A DNA stretch of 64,000 nt from Methylococcaceae bacterium UBA2778 (GCA_002352385.1 DEII01000121.1:19959-83958), one strand, 5' to 3'; counted from the stretch's first letter, positions 35,238 through 58,444 are shown. The notes: generated by a model not told the origin, from the sequence alone. A program made the numbers and translations.

Positions 35238-36800
35238 ATGCCAACATCATTGAATTATCCAGGCGTCTATGTCGAGGAAATTCCCAGTGGTGTCCGTACG
35301 ATCACCGGGGTTGCCACTTCCATCGCTGCTGTCGTCGGTAGAGCGAAACGCGGGCCAATCGATAAGGCCACGGTCATAAACAGTTATGCCGACTATGAAC
35401 GCCTTTTTGGTGGGCTCGATCTCACTAGCAAGATGAGCTTTGCCGTCCGGGATTTTTATCTAAATGGTGGTCAGCAGACGGTAATCGTGCGAATTTACCA
35501 TGCGGACCCTCCTGCGGAACCGGGTGGAGACGCTCCTCCATCGTTGGCAAGCCTGACTGCCGGAAATGTCGAACTCGAGGCAGCCAGTCCAGGCGCTTGG
35601 GGCAACAGGCTTCGTGTCATTGTCGATCATGACGACGCAGCGACCGCGGACGTCGCTGAGCGCCAGGAGGTGGAAGTCGGAGACCTTTTCAATCTCACCG
35701 TAGAAGAAAACGTCGAAACAGGACGGCGAGAGCGTTTCCTGAACGTGACAGTCATAGCAGGACCGCGCCAGCTGGATAAAGTCCTCGAAAATGAGTCCGA
35801 ATTGGCTCGCCTGGCTGAAGGCGCCGACTTGCCGGAAACGAGACCGTCGGATAGTACCTATACGGTGACAGAAGCCAATCGGGCCTCCGATGGTCAGCCG
35901 CTCGCCGTTAACGATTATATCGGAGACAGAGTTCGAAAAAGAGGCCTTTACGCACTAGAGCAAATTGACCTGTTCAATCTTCTTTGTTTGCCCTCGGAAG
36001 GGGAAACATCGGATTATCCCGCCGGTTTGCTTGCATCTGCGGCCAGCTATTGCGAAGACCGCCGCGCAATGCTTCTCGTGGACTCACCCAGCAGTTGGAG
36101 CAATAAGGATAGAGCGAGGAGTGGCATGGCTACGGGTGTAGGAACCAATAGCAAGAATGCCGCGATATTTTTCCCCCGCCTGAAGCAGCCCAATCCGCTT
36201 CGCGACAATCAAATCGAGGAATTCGTGCCGTGCGGCGCCGTGGCGGGCGTGTTTGCACGCACCGATGCGCAGCGCGGGGTGTGGAAGGCGCCCGCGGGTA
36301 TCGAAGCAACCTTGAAAGGTGTTCCGGAACTCAGCGTTAACCTGACAGATCCGGAAAACGGGGAACTCAATCCACTAGGCCTGAACTGTTTGCGCACATT
36401 TCCCGTCATTGGCCGGGTCGTATGGGGCGCGAGAACACTGAAGGGGGCAGATGTGTTGGCCCATGAATGGAAGTACACCCCGGTAAGACGGTTAGCGCTT
36501 TTCATAGAAGAAAGCCTGTATCGCGGTACCCAGTGGGTCGTTTTCGAGCCAAACGACGAGCCCCTATGGGCTCAAATCCGACTCAATGTCGGTGCCTTCA
36601 TGAATAATCTCTTTCGCCAAGGCGCCTTTCAGGGCGTGTCACCCCGGGATGCATATTTTGTCAAGTGCGACAAGGAGAGCACGACACAGAACGATATCAA
36701 CCTCGGCATCGTGAATATCGTTGTCGGCTTTGCACCGCTTAAGCCGGCCGAGTTCGTGGTTATCAAGATTCAACAGATCGCTGGCCAAGTCCAGGTTTGA
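35238..36800 (+). CDS. Contractile tail sheath protein (CIS sheath)
   Basis: 520 aa. N-terminus MPTSLNYPGVYVEEIPSGVRTITGVATSIAAVVG and C-terminus ...AYFVKCDKESTTQNDINLGIVNIVVGFAPLKPAEFVVIKI are the conserved ends of phage-tail sheath family proteins. GGAGGA Shine-Dalgarno upstream. Confidence 0.92.
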   Translation: MPTSLNYPGVYVEEIPSGVRTITGVATSIAAVVGRAKRGPIDKATVINSYADYERLFGGLDLTSKMSFAVRDFYLNGGQQTVIVRIYHADPPAEPGGDAPPSLASLTAGNVELEAASPGAWGNRLRVIVDHDDAATADVAERQEVEVGDLFNLTVEENVETGRRERFLNVTVIAGPRQLDKVLENESELARLAEGADLPETRPSDSTYTVTEANRASDGQPLAVNDYIGDRVRKRGLYALEQIDLFNLLCLPSEGETSDYPAGLLASAASYCEDRRAMLLVDSPSSWSNKDRARSGMATGVGTNSKNAAIFFPRLKQPNPLRDNQIEEFVPCGAVAGVFARTDAQRGVWKAPAGIEATLKGVPELSVNLTDPENGELNPLGLNCLRTFPVIGRVVWGARTLKGADVLAHEWKYTPVRRLALFIEESLYRGTQWVVFEPNDEPLWAQIRLNVGAFMNNLFRQGAFQGVSPRDAYFVKCDKESTTQNDINLGIVNIVVGFAPLKPAEFVVIKIQQIAGQVQV

Positions 36801-36811
36801 GGAGAAGAAAA

Positions 36812-37339
36812 ATGGCAGATCCTCGCTACAAAATTGATCGTTACGATCCTTACAAGAACTTCAAGTTCCACGTCAAATTTGGTACGAAGACCGTAGCCGC
36901 GGTCAGCAAAGTCAGTGCGCTCAAGCGCACTACTGAGGTGGTGACACATCGGGACGGGGCGGACCCAAGCACGAGCCGCAAGTCGCCGGGCCGCACCGAC
37001 TACGAAGCCATCACGCTGGAGCGCGGGGTAACCCACGATATAGAGTTCGAGCAGTGGGCCAACAAAGTGTGGAATTATGATTCGGGAGCCGGCTCAGAAG
37101 TCTCGCTCAAAGATTTCCGCAGGGACGTCACGATCGAGCTACTCAACGAGGCGGGTCAGGTGGCGCTGAGGTACAACGTCTACAATTGCTGGGTGTCCGA
37201 TTTCCAGGCATTGCCCGAGCTGGATGCCAACGCCAATGCCGTTGCGATCCAGACCTTGAAACTTGAAAACGAGGGCTGGACGCGTGACGATACGCACACG
37301 CCTGAGGATGAACCTGAATTTACGTTGCCGGAGGCCTGA
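36812..37339 (+). CDS. Tail tube protein (T4 gp19-like / conserved phage tail region protein)
   Basis: The ATG at 36812 follows a GGAGAAG Shine-Dalgarno. MADPRYKIDRYDPYKNFKFHVKFGTKTVAAVSKVSALKRTTEVVTHRDG...YEAITLERGVTHD matches the tube family pattern. Confidence 0.9.
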   Translation: MADPRYKIDRYDPYKNFKFHVKFGTKTVAAVSKVSALKRTTEVVTHRDGADPSTSRKSPGRTDYEAITLERGVTHDIEFEQWANKVWNYDSGAGSEVSLKDFRRDVTIELLNEAGQVALRYNVYNCWVSDFQALPELDANANAVAIQTLKLENEGWTRDDTHTPEDEPEFTLPEA

Positions 37340-57045: not shown

Positions 57046-57064
57046 TGACATAAGGAGAAGAACC

Positions 57065-58444
57065 ATGAAAGGCGATTTCTCACGGGTTACACTGAACGAG
57101 GAAAAGCACTACTCCCTGGTGCTGATGCAGCAGGGCAGAGTACTGCTGGATAACGACTGGAACGAACAGGGGCTGACACTGTGGCTTGCACAGCAGAAAC
57201 TCATTGGAGATCTGATCGGAGAGCACGGCGGGCCAGAGGGCAGCTTCGAAATTTATCCGATGCCGTCCGACGAAACCCCGAGTGCGTCTGATTTCATGAT
57301 TCGCGATGGACGTTATTATGTCCAGGGTGCGATGTGCGAGAACGAAGAATCGTGCCGTTTCACCGACCAGCCGGACTACCCGCCATTCAGCGACTACAAT
57401 CCGAATCCGATCGATGAGCCAGGGACTTATCTCATATACCTGCATGTGTGGCTTCGACACATCACTCACCTGGAAGACGAAGCGTTGCGTGAAGTCGCCT
57501 TGGGTGGGCCGGATACCACTACCCGCGTCAAGACCGTTTGGCAGGTGAAGGCCAAGAAAACAGACCTAGCGTTATATAGCGACGATGGCGCAGCCAACCG
57601 AGTTCTTAAGGAAAATTACGAACAATTCGAACAGGAGTTGGGTGATGAGATCTATCCAAGGAGCAGCTTCCTCAAGGCCCGAGCCATTATCCCCCGGGAA
57701 ACGGTGGAACCTTGCAGGATTTCTCCGGAAAACCGTTACCGCGGCGCTGAGAATCAACTCTATCGCGTCGAAATCCATCGCGGTGGGCTGGCCTTTGATG
57801 CAGAAGCCAATAATCAAACTCCACGACCGGCCACATTTAAATGGTCCCGGGAAAACGGTTCGGTGGTATTTCCGATCGAAGACATCAACGGCAGCGTGGT
57901 GACTGTCAGCCACCTTGGCCGTGACACGCGTTTCGGTCTGAAGCCAGGCGACTGGGTTGAGGTTGTTGATGATGACTATGTACTGCTGGGAAAGAGGGAA
58001 AAGCTCCTCCGGGTGGGAGAGGTCGATCCGGTCGAGATGCAGGTTGTCTTGTCGGAATCCCCGGCTCACACGCCCGGGTCATCCAAGCATCCCCTGTTGC
58101 GCCGCTGGGACCAAAAAGGCGACGAGGAAGGAGGGATGATTGTCGTCGAAGAAGGCAAGTGGGTCGAGCTGGAGGACGGTGTGGAAATCTGGTTCGAGCC
58201 TCCACCAAGTCAGATCCTGGCCCACTATTGCAGCGGCGAATGGTGGTTCATTCCCGCGCGAACGGCTACGGGTGATGTGGAATGGCCAAAAGAGAGCGAC
58301 GGAAGTCCTCTATCCCAACCGGCTATGCATCCTACCCAGGGTTTCGCACCGCTTGCCCTCGTAGAATTTAGTGAGGACGGAATTATTGCTGATAATAATG
58401 ACATTATAGATTTGCGGCGCAAGCTTGCGCAGCGTTGGGAATAG
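57065..58444 (+). CDS. Conserved CIS-terminal protein (N-terminus resembles the family I recall as DUF6519)
   Basis: 459 aa. MKGDFSRVTLNEEKHYSLVLMQQGRVLLDNDWNEQ is an N-terminus I recognise from the last genes of similar tail-like clusters. Function unknown. Confidence 0.65.
   Translation: MKGDFSRVTLNEEKHYSLVLMQQGRVLLDNDWNEQGLTLWLAQQKLIGDLIGEHGGPEGSFEIYPMPSDETPSASDFMIRDGRYYVQGAMCENEESCRFTDQPDYPPFSDYNPNPIDEPGTYLIYLHVWLRHITHLEDEALREVALGGPDTTTRVKTVWQVKAKKTDLALYSDDGAANRVLKENYEQFEQELGDEIYPRSSFLKARAIIPRETVEPCRISPENRYRGAENQLYRVEIHRGGLAFDAEANNQTPRPATFKWSRENGSVVFPIEDINGSVVTVSHLGRDTRFGLKPGDWVEVVDDDYVLLGKREKLLRVGEVDPVEMQVVLSESPAHTPGSSKHPLLRRWDQKGDEEGGMIVVEEGKWVELEDGVEIWFEPPPSQILAHYCSGEWWFIPARTATGDVEWPKESDGSPLSQPAMHPTQGFAPLALVEFSEDGIIADNNDIIDLRRKLAQRWE

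What the first reader, a model, noticed from the sequence alone, without database searches (positions are those of the whole stretch)
35238..58444. Stand-alone contractile injection system (eCIS-like) encoded as one 23-kb, 19-gene operon
One strand carries a full set of tail-like parts. These are sheath, tube, DUF4255 cap, AAA+ ATPase, a tube-like protein, gpX/LysM-like protein, gpD-like hub, gp5-like spike, PAAR-like tip, gp25, a 978-aa gp6-like and a 986-aa gp7-like wedge protein, and two large distal proteins. Ten of the 18 gene junctions overlap (ATGA, TGATG, TAATG or 8-nt overlaps), which indicates translational coupling. The window has no capsid, portal, terminase, lysis or integrase gene, and no T6SS membrane-complex or ClpV-type gene, so neither a prophage nor a T6SS fits. 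The DUF4255 plus AAA+ pair is the hallmark of Afp/PVC/MAC-type systems. The gene order (sheath and tube first, cap and ATPase in the middle, baseplate last) differs from the well-studied Afp/PVC order. Target, release mode (extracellular versus cytoplasmic or membrane-anchored) and function in this host are unknown.
Basis: partly seen in the sequence, partly recalled or inferred. Interest (0 to 1): 0.8.

Follow-up and report, generated by a model that had tools for sequence, protein, structure and literature searches.

The report
Phage-tail-like injection system with toxin cargo
This is a complete, stand-alone phage-tail-like protein injection machine of a widespread but little-studied class (eCIS lineage II); it carries two candidate toxin cargo genes in a swappable slot, and it is a typical new member of a known kind, not a new kind of system.

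Summary
There are 19 same-strand genes at 35238-58444, 10 of 18 junctions overlap, and profile matches support sheath, tube, DUF4255 cap, AAA+ ATPase, tube initiator, split gp27/gp5 spike, PAAR-like tip, gp25 and baseplate-J proteins. No capsid, terminase, lysis or T6SS membrane-complex genes were found in the window or its immediate flanks.

The locus is a contractile injection system of eCIS lineage II. It has the IIa/IIc traits of two Afp11 paralogues, a split VgrG and no recognisable tape measure. The "unusual" gene order is the standard one: it recurs in 80 related loci from many bacterial and archaeal phyla.

Corrections and additions:
- g16 and g17 are both gp6/Baseplate_J paralogues.
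- g18 combines a weak P2-gpI/Mu-gp48-like N-terminus with a beta-helix.
- g19 is DUF6519 (eBAP5) with a phage receptor-binding-protein-like fold.
- g8 and g9 sit in a variable, low-GC3 cargo slot.
- g9 is DUF4157 + thioredoxin + JAB-like.
- g8 has the Cys-rich leader typical of DUF4157 toxins plus a C-terminal domain that elsewhere ends polymorphic DUF4157 proteins.

Release mode is unresolved. The nearest characterised relatives (a haloarchaeal system and Streptomyces) fire from inside the cell.

Verdict: new member of a known kind, moderate interest.

The parts
35238..36800 (+). g1, contractile sheath (Afp2-4/Cis2), 520 aa
   Evidence: Matches Phage_sheath_1 and Phage_sheath_1C. Matches solved CIS sheaths: 9EZM, E 2.7e-79; 8BKY, E 1.3e-77; Pvc2, E 3e-47. 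55-71% identical to the sheath in 80 loci.
36812..37339 (+). g2, inner tube (Afp1/Cis1), 175 aa
   Evidence: Phage_T4_gp19, E 2.4e-45. The ATG is preceded by GAGGAG. 60-74% identical in related loci.
37343..38080 (+). g3, T4 gp51-like protein with two CxxC pairs (predicted zinc ribbon), 245 aa; lineage-specific conserved gene, likely an assembly factor
   Evidence: Pfam T4_baseplate, E 4.9e-11; PHROG 150 'baseplate hub', E 1.7e-11. CPKC and CPEC motifs are visible in the sequence. Present after the tube gene in nearly all related loci.
38080..39054 (+). g4, low-complexity Pro/Arg/Ser/Gln-rich protein, 324 aa, with a conserved C-terminal ~50 aa (IxVxIGRIEVRA...MSLDDYL); function unknown
   Evidence: No Pfam, NCBIfam or PHROG match. 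A protein with the same C-terminal motif occupies the same slot between g3 and g5 in 53 loci, with total lengths of 136-1116 aa. A profile of the motif finds no PDB match.
39047..40255 (+). g5, tail terminator/cap (Afp16/Cis16), 402 aa
   Evidence: Pvc16_N (DUF4255), E 1.2e-45.
40252..42318 (+). g6, AAA+ ATPase (Afp15/Cis15), 688 aa
   Evidence: Winged-helix variant (E 2.5e-22) plus AAA (E 1.1e-25). 44-78% identical in related loci.
42315..42569 (+). g7, conserved 84-aa protein (MNINxxIERLVLDG...), function unknown
   Evidence: No family match. Found directly after the ATPase gene in 25 loci at 34-56% identity. No PDB match.
42566..43774 (+). g8, candidate cargo 1, 402 aa: Cys-rich leader (aa 2-62) plus a C-terminal domain of unknown function (aa ~160-400)
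   Evidence: GC3 is 0.45, against 0.6-0.7 in the core genes. A full-library HMMER search gave 67 hits. The leader occurs at the N-terminus of proteins of which 28/32 carry DUF4157, with varied toxin domains. The C-terminal domain lies at the extreme C-terminus of 300-1244 aa proteins, 11/22 of which carry DUF4157. The conserved motif is N-H-E-L-x-H-L; g8 has NEELWHL.
43868..45529 (+). g9, candidate cargo 2, 553 aa: DUF4157 (HExxH) + thioredoxin-like (WCRGPC) + JAB/MPN-like C-terminal domain
   Evidence: eCIS_core, E 2.4e-26; Thioredoxin, E 2.8e-7; Prok-JAB, E 3e-3 (below cut-off). Matches PDB thioredoxins, E 9e-9. Only aa ~10-200 are conserved in related loci. The E..HTHP..PS..D motif is shared with the one homologue of the C-terminal domain, P0251. 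GC3 is 0.48.
45603..46298 (+). g10, tube-like protein / tube initiator (Afp5/Cis5), 231 aa
   Evidence: CIS_tube, E 2.4e-5, 24.6 bits, just under the cut-off of 27. 46-53% identical in the same position in related loci.
46318..46608 (+). g11, small gpX/LysM-like baseplate protein (Afp7-like), 96 aa
   Evidence: Only weak matches: Phage_tail_X, E 0.04; PHROG baseplate wedge/hub, E 3e-3. Conserved position, 36-53% identity.
46618..47775 (+). g12, gp27-like hub half of a split VgrG (Afp8 N-terminal part), 385 aa
   Evidence: NCBIfam VgrG_rel, E 1.9e-6 (below cut-off); PHROG baseplate hub, E 8.7e-5; faint Phage_GPD; PDB VgrG 9RCE_F, E 4e-3.
47772..48272 (+). g13, gp5-like OB-fold spike half of a split VgrG, 166 aa
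   Evidence: Phage_base_V, E 5.1e-22.
48272..48595 (+). g14, PAAR-like spike tip (Afp10), 107 aa
   Evidence: DUF4280, E 5.4e-7, above cut-off.
48596..48958 (+). g15, gp25-like wedge protein (Afp9), 120 aa
   Evidence: GPW_gp25, E 3.6e-13.
48955..51891 (+). g16, gp6/Baseplate_J paralogue a (Afp11a/Cis11a), 978 aa
   Evidence: TIGR02243 'putative baseplate assembly protein', E 2.5e-101. PHROG baseplate wedge, E 5.7e-24. PDB 9GTP_1K baseplate J, E 1e-13. Paralogous to g17.
51888..54848 (+). g17, gp6/Baseplate_J paralogue b (Afp11b/Cis11b), 986 aa
   Evidence: Baseplate_J, E 9.6e-9. PDB 9GTP_1K, E 1.7e-11. 31% identical to g16 over 273 aa, E 2e-23.
54841..57045 (+). g18, highly conserved distal baseplate protein, 734 aa: weak P2 gpI/Mu gp48-like N-terminus plus a right-handed beta-helix core
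   Evidence: More than 6,500 homologues; the best 120 listed are 57-70% identical, and almost none carries a Pfam family. Phage_Mu_Gp48, E 0.07, over aa 8-63. The AF2 model is confident mainly over ~370-610, which is beta-helical; Foldseek hits pectin methylesterase, pectate lyase and tailspikes.
57065..58444 (+). g19, DUF6519 (eBAP5) receptor-binding-protein-like terminal gene, 459 aa
   Evidence: DUF6519, E 2.2e-90. More than 7,400 homologues, mostly ~450-480 aa. AF2 model: pLDDT 80, pTM 0.82. Foldseek hits phage phi812 baseplate chains (E 3e-7), a Lactobacillus phage putative RBP (E 2.5e-8), DUF4815 and tail-fibre proteins; TssK only at E 0.14. It is the terminal gene in Methylomicrobium and other loci.
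42566..45602 (+). Variable cargo slot between the ATPase/g7 block and the tube initiator
   Evidence: The distance from g6 to g10 ranges from 0.24 kb to more than 4.3 kb among related loci. GC3 falls to 0.45-0.48 here. The only sizeable intergenic gaps of the operon, 93 and 73 nt, flank g9.
34402..35237 (.). 836-bp, 48% GC upstream intergenic region (promoter not identified)
   Evidence: No significant sigma-70-like site or Rfam match. Contains an 84-nt near-perfect hairpin at 34592-34675. Not conserved in related loci.

Best explanation
The 19 genes encode a complete contractile injection system of eCIS lineage II. In the Chen et al. 2019 scheme it has the traits of subtypes IIa/IIc.

Inferred mechanism, by homology to solved CIS and phage tails:
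- A baseplate forms from the split gp27/gp5 spike (g12, g13) with its PAAR-like tip (g14), gp25 (g15), two Baseplate_J paralogues (g16, g17) and the distal pair g18/g19.
- The baseplate nucleates a tube (g10 initiator, g2 tube) surrounded by an extended sheath (g1) and capped by the DUF4255 protein (g5).
- The AAA+ ATPase (g6), and probably the lineage-specific genes g3, g4 and g7, act in assembly or cargo loading.
- Sheath contraction drives the tube and spike into a target membrane and releases the cargo.

The cargo is most likely the two proteins encoded in the variable slot:
- g9, with a DUF4157 N-terminal module followed by thioredoxin-like and JAB/MPN-like domains.
- g8, with the Cys-rich leader typical of DUF4157 toxins plus a C-terminal domain that elsewhere ends polymorphic DUF4157 proteins.

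What is shown here: gene content, homology, synteny, and the modular architecture of the cargo genes.

What is inferred: assembly, cargo loading and firing.

What remains open: the release mode. I put about 0.55 on an extracellular particle that binds targets through the RBP-like g19, and about 0.35 on a cell-associated mode like its nearest characterised relatives.

The confidence given (0.85) is for the identity of the system as a lineage II CIS with DUF4157-type cargo, not for the release mode.
For: - Core parts are supported by profiles and by sequence matches to solved CIS sheath and baseplate chains.
- Subtype traits: two Afp11 paralogues, a split VgrG, a PAAR-like gene, no recognisable Afp14, and archaeal relatives at 62-63% sheath identity. 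These match the description of subtypes IIa/IIc in PMC6899500.
- The order g1-g2-g3-[g4 slot]-g5-g6-g7 recurs in 80 loci across many phyla. The distal module from gp27-like to DUF6519 recurs with the same order and gene sizes in Methylomicrobium sp. Wu6 and in Gammaproteobacteria MAGs, each in a different chromosomal context.
- Cargo slot: the g6-to-g10 distance is variable and GC3 is low. Only the leader and DUF4157 part of g9 is conserved across loci. Both modules of g8 recur fused to DUF4157 and to known toxin domains.
- Published work links DUF4157 N-terminal modules to eCIS toxins (PMC8213781). It also shows sheath-dependent secretion of DUF4157 proteins in a clade IIa system (PMC11566945).
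- For target binding: DUF6519 is catalogued as the eBAP5 fibre anchor domain (PMC12923769), and the g19 model hits phage RBP and baseplate-arm proteins.
- No predicted TM helix in any of the 19 proteins.
- No phage head, lysis or T6SS membrane genes in the window or its flanks.
Against: - No experimental data exist for this locus.
- g10, g11 and g12 rest on sub-threshold matches plus position.
- The JAB assignment is weak: Pfam 17.8 bits against a cut-off of 25, no PDB sequence match, and only one homologue sharing the motif.
- g8 lacks the first His of its family's HExxH-like motif.
- No immunity gene is evident next to g8 or g9, and no lysis cassette was found that would release particles.
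- g18 and g19 are as conserved as, or more conserved than, core baseplate proteins. Against the Methylomicrobium and MAG loci, g18 is 56-58% identical and g19 46-50%, against 37-45% for g12, g13 and g17. Most g19 homologues have no extra C-terminal receptor-binding domain. Both points are atypical for target-specific fibres.
- The nearest characterised relatives are membrane-bound (haloarchaeal clade IIa) or cytoplasmic (Streptomyces IId).
- The g18 model is of low confidence outside the beta-helix.
Confidence: 0.85

Rival explanations
1. Same machine, different mode. It is not released as a free particle but fires from inside the producer, either apposed to the inner membrane (T6SS-like) or free in the cytoplasm. 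In that case the conserved g18/g19 pair would anchor the baseplate rather than recognise foreign cells.
For: - The closest solved sheaths belong to the membrane-bound Halogeometricum clade IIa system and to the cytoplasmic Streptomyces CIS (PMC11566945; PMC10066040).
- g18 and g19 are unusually conserved and of uniform length.
- No lysis genes were found in the window.
- In the haloarchaeal system, peripheral Cis12/Cis13 were proposed to contact the membrane.
Against: - No TM helix in any operon protein.
- No conserved membrane-protein neighbour shared with related loci.
- No TssJLM-like genes.
- The g19 fold matches phage receptor-binding and baseplate-arm proteins far better than TssK: E 3e-7 to 2.5e-8 against 0.14.
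- DUF6519 is catalogued as a fibre anchor domain.
Confidence: 0.35
2. A defective myovirus prophage remnant or an R-type tailocin: a tail-only bacteriocin that kills by membrane depolarisation and delivers no cargo.
For: - All structural parts are phage-tail homologues.
- A tyrosine recombinase lies about 7.8 kb downstream of the operon end.
Against: - The cluster carries Pvc16_N/DUF4255, an AAA+ ATPase and DUF4157, the eCIS marker set. By general knowledge these are not part of R-type pyocin clusters; this was not tested here.
- No capsid, portal, terminase, holin or endolysin families were found anywhere in the window or its flanks.
- The recombinase is paired with an IS91-type Y2 transposase and is separated from the operon by pstSCAB, a Meth_synt_2 gene and an HPP/CBS gene.
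- The same cluster sits in unrelated chromosomal contexts without phage genes.
Confidence: 0.04
3. A canonical type VI secretion system (subtypes i-iii).
For: Sheath, tube, VgrG-like, PAAR-like and gp25/TssE-like parts are shared with T6SS.
Against: - No TssJ/L/M, TssA or ClpV families in the window.
- The sheath is a single phage-type protein, not a TssB/TssC pair.
- A DUF4255 cap and Baseplate_J proteins are present; PMC6899500 lists these as encoded in eCIS loci and not in classical T6SS loci.
Confidence: 0.02

Closest known systems
eCIS lineage II, subtypes IIa/IIc of Chen et al. 2019 (dbeCIS; PMC6899500)
   Same: Two afp11 (Baseplate_J) copies; VgrG split into gp27-like and gp5-like ORFs; PAAR-like gene present; no recognisable Afp14 tape measure; extra lineage-specific conserved genes without known domains (g3, g4, g7 here); bacterial and archaeal members.
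   Different: Assignment to IIa or IIc could not be made, because no Afp11 reference tree was available. That paper describes afp12/afp13 as divergent (IIa) or absent (IIc). Here the two distal genes are a beta-helix protein and a DUF6519 protein.
Halogeometricum borinquense clade IIa CIS ('archaeal T6SS'; PMC11566945; sheath PDB 9EZM)
   Same: Best PDB sheath match, E 2.7e-79. Two cis11 genes. Structural genes lie in two blocks separated by a region that encodes DUF4157 proteins, and those proteins are secreted in a sheath-dependent manner.
   Different: The archaeal system is bound to the cytoplasmic membrane and is associated with a six-TM putative anchor, Hbor_38620. No TM protein lies in or is conserved next to this operon. 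The archaeal interspacing region is 8.7 kb with nine genes and toxin-immunity pairs. Here the slot is about 3 kb with two genes and no evident immunity gene.
Streptomyces cytoplasmic CIS (CISSc, subtype IId; PMC10066040; PDB 8BKY/9GTP)
   Same: Full-length sheath match, E 1.3e-77. Both g16 and g17 match its Baseplate_J chain. No conventional tape measure. A DUF4157 protein is encoded just upstream of the tube initiator in S. davawensis, where it is called Tme (PMC11126660).
   Different: Subtype IId has a single afp11 and a contiguous VgrG, lacks a tail fibre, and needs the membrane protein CisA. This locus has two afp11 copies, a split VgrG and a DUF6519 RBP-like terminal gene. Its DUF4157 protein has 553 aa and no TM helices, against 2,247 aa for Tme.
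Afp / PVC (subtype Ia) extracellular injection systems
   Same: Sheath, tube, tube initiator, LysM-like protein, spike, PAAR, gp25, Baseplate_J, AAA+ ATPase and DUF4255 cap.
   Different: Different gene order. One sheath gene instead of three. No Afp14 tape measure, Afp12 or Afp13-type fibre. Cargo is encoded mid-operon, not at the 3' end. Sheath similarity covers only the C-terminal part, E 1e-36 to 3e-47.
eBAP5 (DUF6519) fibre class of eCIS (PMC12923769)
   Same: The terminal gene is DUF6519. It lies downstream of the baseplate genes and follows a protein with a weak P2 gpI/Mu gp48-like N-terminus, consistent with the reported Tail_P2_I adaptor.
   Different: The paper associates eBAP5 mainly with Actinobacteriota, and it says eBAP3/5 loci largely lack Afp12 homologues. 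The relatives found here are mostly from Gram-negative phyla and archaea. g19 is almost entirely DUF6519, with no added C-terminal receptor-binding domain.

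Membership tests
eCIS/CIS superfamily (Afp/PVC-like; core set of Chen 2019 and Geller 2021) | Phage-type sheath and gp19-like tube | tested here: met
   Phage_sheath_1 and _1C, and Phage_T4_gp19 at 2.4e-45; matches to PDB CIS sheaths.
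eCIS/CIS superfamily (Afp/PVC-like; core set of Chen 2019 and Geller 2021) | DUF4255/Pvc16_N cap plus AAA+ ATPase (Afp16, Afp15) | tested here: met
   Pvc16_N, 1.2e-45; AAA, 1.1e-25. The two genes are adjacent and overlap by 4 nt.
eCIS/CIS superfamily (Afp/PVC-like; core set of Chen 2019 and Geller 2021) | Spike complex (VgrG-like, PAAR-like), gp25 and Baseplate_J | tested here: met
   Phage_base_V, DUF4280, GPW_gp25, Baseplate_J and TIGR02243. The gp27-like half (g12) has only sub-threshold matches.
eCIS/CIS superfamily (Afp/PVC-like; core set of Chen 2019 and Geller 2021) | DUF4157 'eCIS core' domain protein in the locus | tested here: met
   g9 matches eCIS_core at 2.4e-26 and has an HELTH motif.
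eCIS/CIS superfamily (Afp/PVC-like; core set of Chen 2019 and Geller 2021) | No phage head, packaging or lysis genes and no T6SS membrane complex nearby | tested here: met
   Pfam and PHROG scans of the other window ORFs and of the flanking contigs. About 26 kb of the 89.9-kb source contig was not seen.
eCIS/CIS superfamily (Afp/PVC-like; core set of Chen 2019 and Geller 2021) | Particles released to the medium and acting extracellularly | not testable with these tools
   Needs EM of supernatants or cryo-ET. Indirect evidence is mixed.
eCIS lineage II, subtype IIa or IIc (Chen 2019) | Two afp11 copies | tested here: met
   g16 and g17 are paralogues, E 2e-23. Both hit 9GTP_1K baseplate J.
eCIS lineage II, subtype IIa or IIc (Chen 2019) | afp8 split into gp27-like and gp5-like ORFs; afp10 (PAAR) present; afp14 absent | tested here: met
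   g12 and g13 are separate ORFs overlapping by 4 nt. g14 matches DUF4280. No tape-measure family was found in any of the 19 proteins.
eCIS lineage II, subtype IIa or IIc (Chen 2019) | Placement on the Afp11 phylogeny within IIa or IIc | not tested
Haloarchaeal clade IIa T6SS-like CIS (PMC11566945) | Associated conserved six-TM membrane anchor (Hbor_38620 homologue) | tested here: inconclusive
No TM helix in the operon proteins. The upstream multi-TM genes (HlyIII, PAP2, PMT_2, VTT) are not conserved next to related loci.
Streptomyces cytoplasmic CIS (subtype IId) | Single afp11, contiguous VgrG, no fibre-like gene, CisA-type membrane partner | tested here: not met
   Two afp11 copies, a split VgrG and a DUF6519 RBP-like terminal gene. 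No CisA-like TM protein in the operon.
Canonical T6SS (i-iii) | TssJLM membrane complex, TssA, ClpV, TssB/TssC two-protein sheath | tested here: not met
   None of these families was found in the window. The sheath is a single phage-type protein.
Myovirus prophage | Capsid, portal, terminase and lysis genes, and an integrase flanking the tail genes | tested here: not met
   No such families were found. The only recombinase belongs to an IS91-type unit beyond housekeeping genes.
eBAP5 fibre class (PMC12923769) | DUF6519 protein downstream of the baseplate genes | tested here: met
   g19 matches DUF6519 at 2.2e-90 and is the last gene of the operon.
eBAP5 fibre class (PMC12923769) | Tail_P2_I-type adaptor encoded upstream of the fibre | tested here: inconclusive
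   g18 has only a weak Phage_Mu_Gp48 match (E 0.07, aa 8-63). Its N-terminal region is of low confidence in the AF2 model.
DUF4157-type eCIS-associated toxins (Geller 2021) | N-terminal DUF4157 with a C-terminal enzymatic or toxin domain, encoded in an eCIS locus | tested here: met
   g9 has DUF4157 at aa 116-178, then thioredoxin-like and JAB-like domains. Toxicity was not tested.

The most novel reading that the evidence does not exclude
The large bacterial IIa/IIc-type class to which this locus belongs may not be extracellular at all. Like both of its nearest characterised relatives, it would fire from within the producer. The unusually conserved g18 (beta-helix) and g19 (DUF6519) pair would then be a conserved anchoring or envelope-engaging module rather than a variable target-recognition fibre. 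A second unexcluded idea concerns the g4 family, which has a conserved C-terminal ~50 aa and total lengths of 136-1116 aa: it could be the missing length-determining or tube-lumen protein of lineage II.
Probability: 0.3. Interest if true: 0.65.

Novelty: new member of a known kind. Interest (0 to 1): 0.35.

Why it matters
Lineage II systems are the majority of CIS loci in genomes, yet only a haloarchaeal system (IIa) and Streptomyces systems (IId) have been studied. Both turned out not to be extracellular.

This locus is a clean, compact, apparently intact example from what is probably a Gram-negative host. That host inference rests on the best sheath matches being Gammaproteobacteria MAGs. 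The class to which it belongs has thousands of homologues.

It offers concrete handles for experiments:
- two modular cargo candidates, one of them an unusual DUF4157-thioredoxin-JAB fusion;
- a very conserved distal pair (g18, g19), whose role as fibre or anchor would settle the mode of action for the whole class;
- three conserved unknowns (g3, g4, g7), which may replace the missing tape measure or loading factors.

None of this makes the locus itself surprising. It is a representative member, not an outlier.

Tried and rejected
- The AF2 model of g18 was poor outside the beta-helix (pLDDT 59). The gpI/TssG-like N-terminus could therefore not be tested structurally.
- PDB sequence searches found nothing significant for g5, the g9 C-terminal domain, the g4 C-terminal profile or the g7 profile. 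g12 gave only E 4e-3 to a VgrG.
- The similarity between the g4 C-terminal motif and the g7 N-terminal motif (IxVxIxRIxV) is marginal: hhalign local E 0.038 over 12 columns. It is not claimed.
- A remnant of DUF4157 in g8 is only hinted at. The hhalign score is driven by the leader.
- Rfam and tRNA scans were empty. Promoter and terminator scans upstream, around g9 and downstream were no better than shuffles. There is no RfaH ops element, and the upstream region is not conserved in related loci.
- The ECF sigma gene next to the operon is not conserved beside related loci, so a regulatory link is only a guess.
- Host taxonomy could not be established. The window is not among the species representatives (best sheath identity 71%). 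Its proteins carry no organism names. The run accessions are not in the paper library.
- Exact-protein look-ups with guessed starts failed twice.
- Prophage, tailocin and canonical T6SS readings were considered and rejected on gene content.

Full report
OBSERVATION

The region 35238-58444 carries 19 consecutive + strand ORFs. I chose starts by ribosome-binding sites and coupling. With those starts, ten of the eighteen junctions overlap by 1, 4 or 8 nt, and one more abuts with no gap. The only sizeable gaps are 93 nt before g9 and 73 nt after it.

Matches above the curated cut-off:
- g1: sheath
- g2: gp19-like tube, 2.4e-45
- g3: T4_baseplate (gp51-like), 4.9e-11
- g5: Pvc16_N/DUF4255, 1.2e-45
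- g6: winged-helix + AAA
- g9: eCIS_core/DUF4157 (2.4e-26) plus thioredoxin
- g13: gp5-like OB domain, 5e-22
- g14: DUF4280 (PAAR-like)
- g15: gp25
- g16: TIGR02243, 2.5e-101
- g17: Baseplate_J
- g19: DUF6519, 2.2e-90

Three assignments rest on sub-threshold matches plus conserved position: g10 (CIS_tube, 24.6 bits against a cut-off of 27), g11 (gpX/LysM-like) and g12 (gp27/VgrG-like).

SURROUNDINGS

The rest of the window is ordinary chromosome:
- a czc-type RND efflux system, MscK, hemB, aroE and a VanX-like dipeptidase;
- an AsnB-like gene followed by several unannotated genes;
- HlyIII, PAP2, PMT_2 and VTT membrane proteins, and a divergent ECF sigma factor directly upstream of the operon;
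- pstSCAB directly downstream.

PHROG and Pfam scans of the unannotated ORFs found no phage families.

The window is part of an 89.9-kb contig. Reading about 6.5 kb beyond the right end shows an HPP/CBS gene and a GDE_N fragment. After these comes a 246-aa tyrosine recombinase next to an IS91-type Y2 transposase. That recombinase is part of an insertion-sequence-like unit. It lies about 7.8 kb beyond the end of the operon and is separated from it by housekeeping genes, so it is not a prophage integrase for this cluster. About 0.8 kb beyond the left end holds more of the efflux operon. No T6SS membrane-complex, TssA or ClpV family appears anywhere.

WHAT IT IS

Against all PDB sequences, the sheath matches best:
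- the Halogeometricum borinquense Cis2 sheath (9EZM, 2.7e-79);
- the Streptomyces CIS sheaths (8BKY/8BL4, about 1e-77, over the full length).

It matches Pvc, Afp, the Anabaena tCIS and AlgoCIS only over the C-terminal part, at 1e-36 to 1e-47.

g16 and g17 both match the Streptomyces CIS Baseplate_J chain 9GTP_1K. They are also paralogues of each other: 31% identity over 273 aa, E 2e-23, plus a second shared N-terminal segment.

Chen et al. 2019 describe lineage II subtypes IIa and IIc as having two afp11 copies, an afp8 split into gp27-like and gp5-like ORFs, a PAAR gene, no afp14, archaeal members, and two or three extra conserved genes without known domains (PMC6899500). This locus fits every one of those features. 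I could not separate IIa from IIc because I had no reference Afp11 tree.

It is a second gp6/Afp11 copy.

THE GENE ORDER IS THE NORM FOR THIS CLASS

A genome-collection scan with the sheath returned at least 480 relatives. The best 80 share 55-71% identity. They come from Gammaproteobacteria, Cyanobacteria, Nitrospirota, Chloroflexota, Acidobacteriota, Verrucomicrobiota, Deltaproteobacteria/Desulfobacterales lineages, Actinomycetota and methanogenic archaea.

tblastn of the 19 proteins against these loci shows the same order wherever the contig reaches: sheath, tube, gp51-like, a ~1-kb slot, cap, ATPase, and in many loci the 85-aa g7.

The distal half has the same order and gene sizes in Methylomicrobium sp. 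Wu6 and in two Gammaproteobacteria MAGs: gp27-like, gp5-like, DUF4280, gp25, a ~900-aa protein, a ~1000-aa protein, a ~760-aa protein and DUF6519. In those genomes it is followed by unrelated housekeeping genes.

The cluster is therefore a self-contained module inserted in different chromosomal contexts. Its order, though unlike Afp/PVC, is not a peculiarity of this locus.

THE LINEAGE-SPECIFIC GENES

g3 is a gp51-like protein with two CxxC pairs. It is present in nearly all related loci.

g4 has no family match and is mostly low-complexity sequence. A protein ending in the same ~50 residues occupies the same slot in 53 loci. The shared ending is IxVTIGRIEVRA, a Pro-rich stretch, then MSLDDYLKRR. 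Total length varies from 136 to 1116 aa.

g7 belongs to a tight 85-aa family that begins MNINLHIERLVLDG.

Neither the g4 nor the g7 profile matches any solved chain. The resemblance between the two motifs is marginal. Their functions remain unknown. A role in length determination, assembly or loading is a hypothesis only.

THE CARGO SLOT

Between the ATPase/g7 block and the tube initiator, GC3 falls to 0.45-0.48, from 0.6-0.7 in the core genes. The operon's only sizeable intergenic gaps occur here. The length of this interval ranges from 0.24 kb to more than 4.3 kb among related loci.

g9:
- It has a DUF4157 domain with HELTH.
- Next comes a thioredoxin-like domain, confirmed against PDB thioredoxins at 9e-9. 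Its active-site motif is WCRGPC instead of WCGPC.
- A C-terminal region gives a weak Prok-JAB match.
- That region carries an E...HTHP...PS..D motif, shared with its single detectable homologue.
- Across related loci only residues ~10-200 of g9 are conserved.
- A search with the C-terminal half found just 39 proteins. Several are DUF4157-thioredoxin fusions.

g8 is bipartite. An exhaustive HMMER search of 1.84 billion representatives gave 67 hits.
- Residues 2-62 form a Cys-rich leader (LQRKCACG...C..C..K...LQR). The leader sits at the N-terminus of proteins of which 28/32 carry DUF4157, together with diverse toxin domains: Ntox1, phospholipase A2 and aspzincin.
- Residues ~160-400 form a domain found at the extreme C-terminus of 300-1244 aa proteins. 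Of these, 11/22 carry DUF4157 and 6/22 carry OmpA.
- The family motif is N-H-E-L-x-H-L. g8 has NEELWHL, as do two other members with Glu in place of the first His. A metalloprotease activity is therefore uncertain.

This is the modular architecture of polymorphic toxins. Two published lines support cargo status:
- Geller et al. 2021 linked N-terminal DUF4157 to eCIS toxins (PMC8213781).
- Zachs et al. 2024 found DUF4157 proteins secreted in a sheath-dependent manner. These included one encoded in the region that separates the two structural blocks of the clade IIa cluster (PMC11566945).

I therefore take g8 and g9 as the probable payloads. No immunity gene is evident next to them.

THE DISTAL PAIR AND THE MODE OF ACTION

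g19:
- It is DUF6519, recently defined as eBAP5, a putative eCIS fibre anchor said to use a Tail_P2_I adaptor (PMC12923769).
- Its AlphaFold model is confident (pLDDT 80, pTM 0.82).
- Foldseek finds phage phi812 baseplate chains at E 3e-7.
- It also finds a Lactobacillus phage putative RBP (2.5e-8), DUF4815 proteins and tail-fibre proteins. There are 24 viral hits below 1e-3.
- TssK scores only 0.14.
- TM-scores are low (~0.2), so these matches are at domain level.

g18:
- It has more than 6,500 homologues. The best 120 listed are 57-70% identical, and almost none carries a Pfam family.
- Its N-terminus gives a weak Mu gp48/P2 gpI-type match (E 0.07).
- The confident core of its model is a right-handed beta-helix, like pectin-lyase-fold enzymes and tailspikes.

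Points favouring a target-binding, extracellular particle:
- the features of g18 and g19 above;
- no TM helix in any operon protein;
- no membrane-protein neighbour shared with related loci.

Points against:
- g18 and g19 are as conserved as, or more conserved than, core baseplate proteins.
- Most g19 homologues have no added receptor-binding domain.
- No lysis genes were seen.
- Both nearest characterised relatives act from inside the cell. The haloarchaeal system is membrane-bound with a six-TM putative anchor. The Streptomyces system is cytoplasmic.

I put about 0.55 on extracellular release and about 0.35 on a cell-associated mode. Sequence alone cannot settle this.

RIVALS

A prophage remnant or R-type tailocin is unlikely. 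The eCIS markers DUF4255, AAA+ and DUF4157 are present, no head or lysis genes are found, and the cluster recurs without phage genes in other genomes.

A canonical T6SS is excluded by gene content.

NOVELTY AND INTEREST

The system belongs to a class recognised since 2019, with thousands of homologues. Its fibre domain was catalogued in 2026. It is a new member of a known kind.

Locus-specific features:
- the particular cargo pair, namely a DUF4157-thioredoxin-JAB fusion and a leader-only protein with an uncharacterised C-terminal domain.

Features of wider interest, belonging to the class rather than to this locus:
- the very conserved g18/g19 pair;
- the g3, g4 and g7 families;
- the open question of release mode.

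These are worth experiments, but the locus is typical rather than surprising. Interest: 0.35.

Noticed in passing
window 34592-34675 (copies at 35179-35190 and 32177-32195): A 26-nt inverted repeat (92% complementary, 32-nt spacer) folds into an 84-nt near-perfect hairpin: -62 kcal/mol, z = -9.9 against shuffles. It lies in the 836-bp, 48% GC region between the divergent ECF sigma gene and the sheath gene. A 12-nt half-site-like copy sits ~50 bp upstream of the sheath ATG, and a 3-mismatch copy lies at 32177. It could be an operator, an RNA hairpin or a small mobile repeat. It is not conserved in related loci.
   Followed up: partly
window 33811-34401 (- strand): An ECF-type sigma factor (Sigma70_r2 + r4_2) is encoded divergently, directly upstream of the operon. 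No recognisable anti-sigma follows it: the 86-aa ORF at 33545-33805 has no family match. It is not conserved next to related loci, so any regulatory link is a guess.
   Followed up: partly
window 38080-39054 (g4), and the same slot in L001-L080: A protein family with a conserved C-terminal ~50 aa (IxVTIGRIEVRA...MSLDDYLKRR) and total lengths from 136 to 1116 aa sits between the gp51-like gene and the cap gene in 53 loci. The Nostoc loci carry the ~1000-aa forms. It has no Pfam or PDB match. It may be a length-determining or lumen protein of lineage II systems.
   Followed up: partly
window 54841-57045 (g18): One of the most conserved proteins of the operon. It has more than 6,500 homologues, and the best 120 listed are 57-70% identical, comparable to or above the sheath. 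Yet almost none has a Pfam family, and all are annotated as hypothetical.
   Followed up: partly
window 44465-44800 (thioredoxin-like domain of g9): The thioredoxin active-site motif is WCRGPC, with an extra Arg compared with WCGPC. Several homologous DUF4157-thioredoxin proteins have WCRPC (CxxC spacing) instead. The redox competence of g9's CxxxC spacing is unknown.
   Followed up: no
window 20269-28085: An AsnB-like amidotransferase (20269-22167) lies in a GC dip (0.50-0.53). It is followed by about seven ORFs (86-517 aa, both strands) with no Pfam or PHROG match. This may be a small island of unknown function, unrelated to the injection system by any evidence here.
   Followed up: partly
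L084 14724-16725 (about 2.3-4.3 kb beyond the right end of the window): A 246-aa tyrosine recombinase (Phage_int_SAM_4 + Phage_integrase) lies next to a 370-aa IS91-family Y2 transposase, near the end of a 45-kb ENA contig. This looks like an insertion-sequence unit, not a prophage.
   Followed up: partly
window 33066-33680 and 34866-35171: Two + strand ORFs upstream of the sheath gene (204 and 101 aa) have low GC3 (0.48-0.52), Arg-rich odd composition, no family match and no conservation. They are probably not genes, so the operon starts at 35238.
   Followed up: yes
window 29758-32886 (- strand): PAP2 phosphatase, PMT_2 (ArnT-like glycosyltransferase) and VTT/DedA-family genes lie in a row. 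This is reminiscent of envelope-lipid modification clusters. No link to the injection system was found.
   Followed up: no
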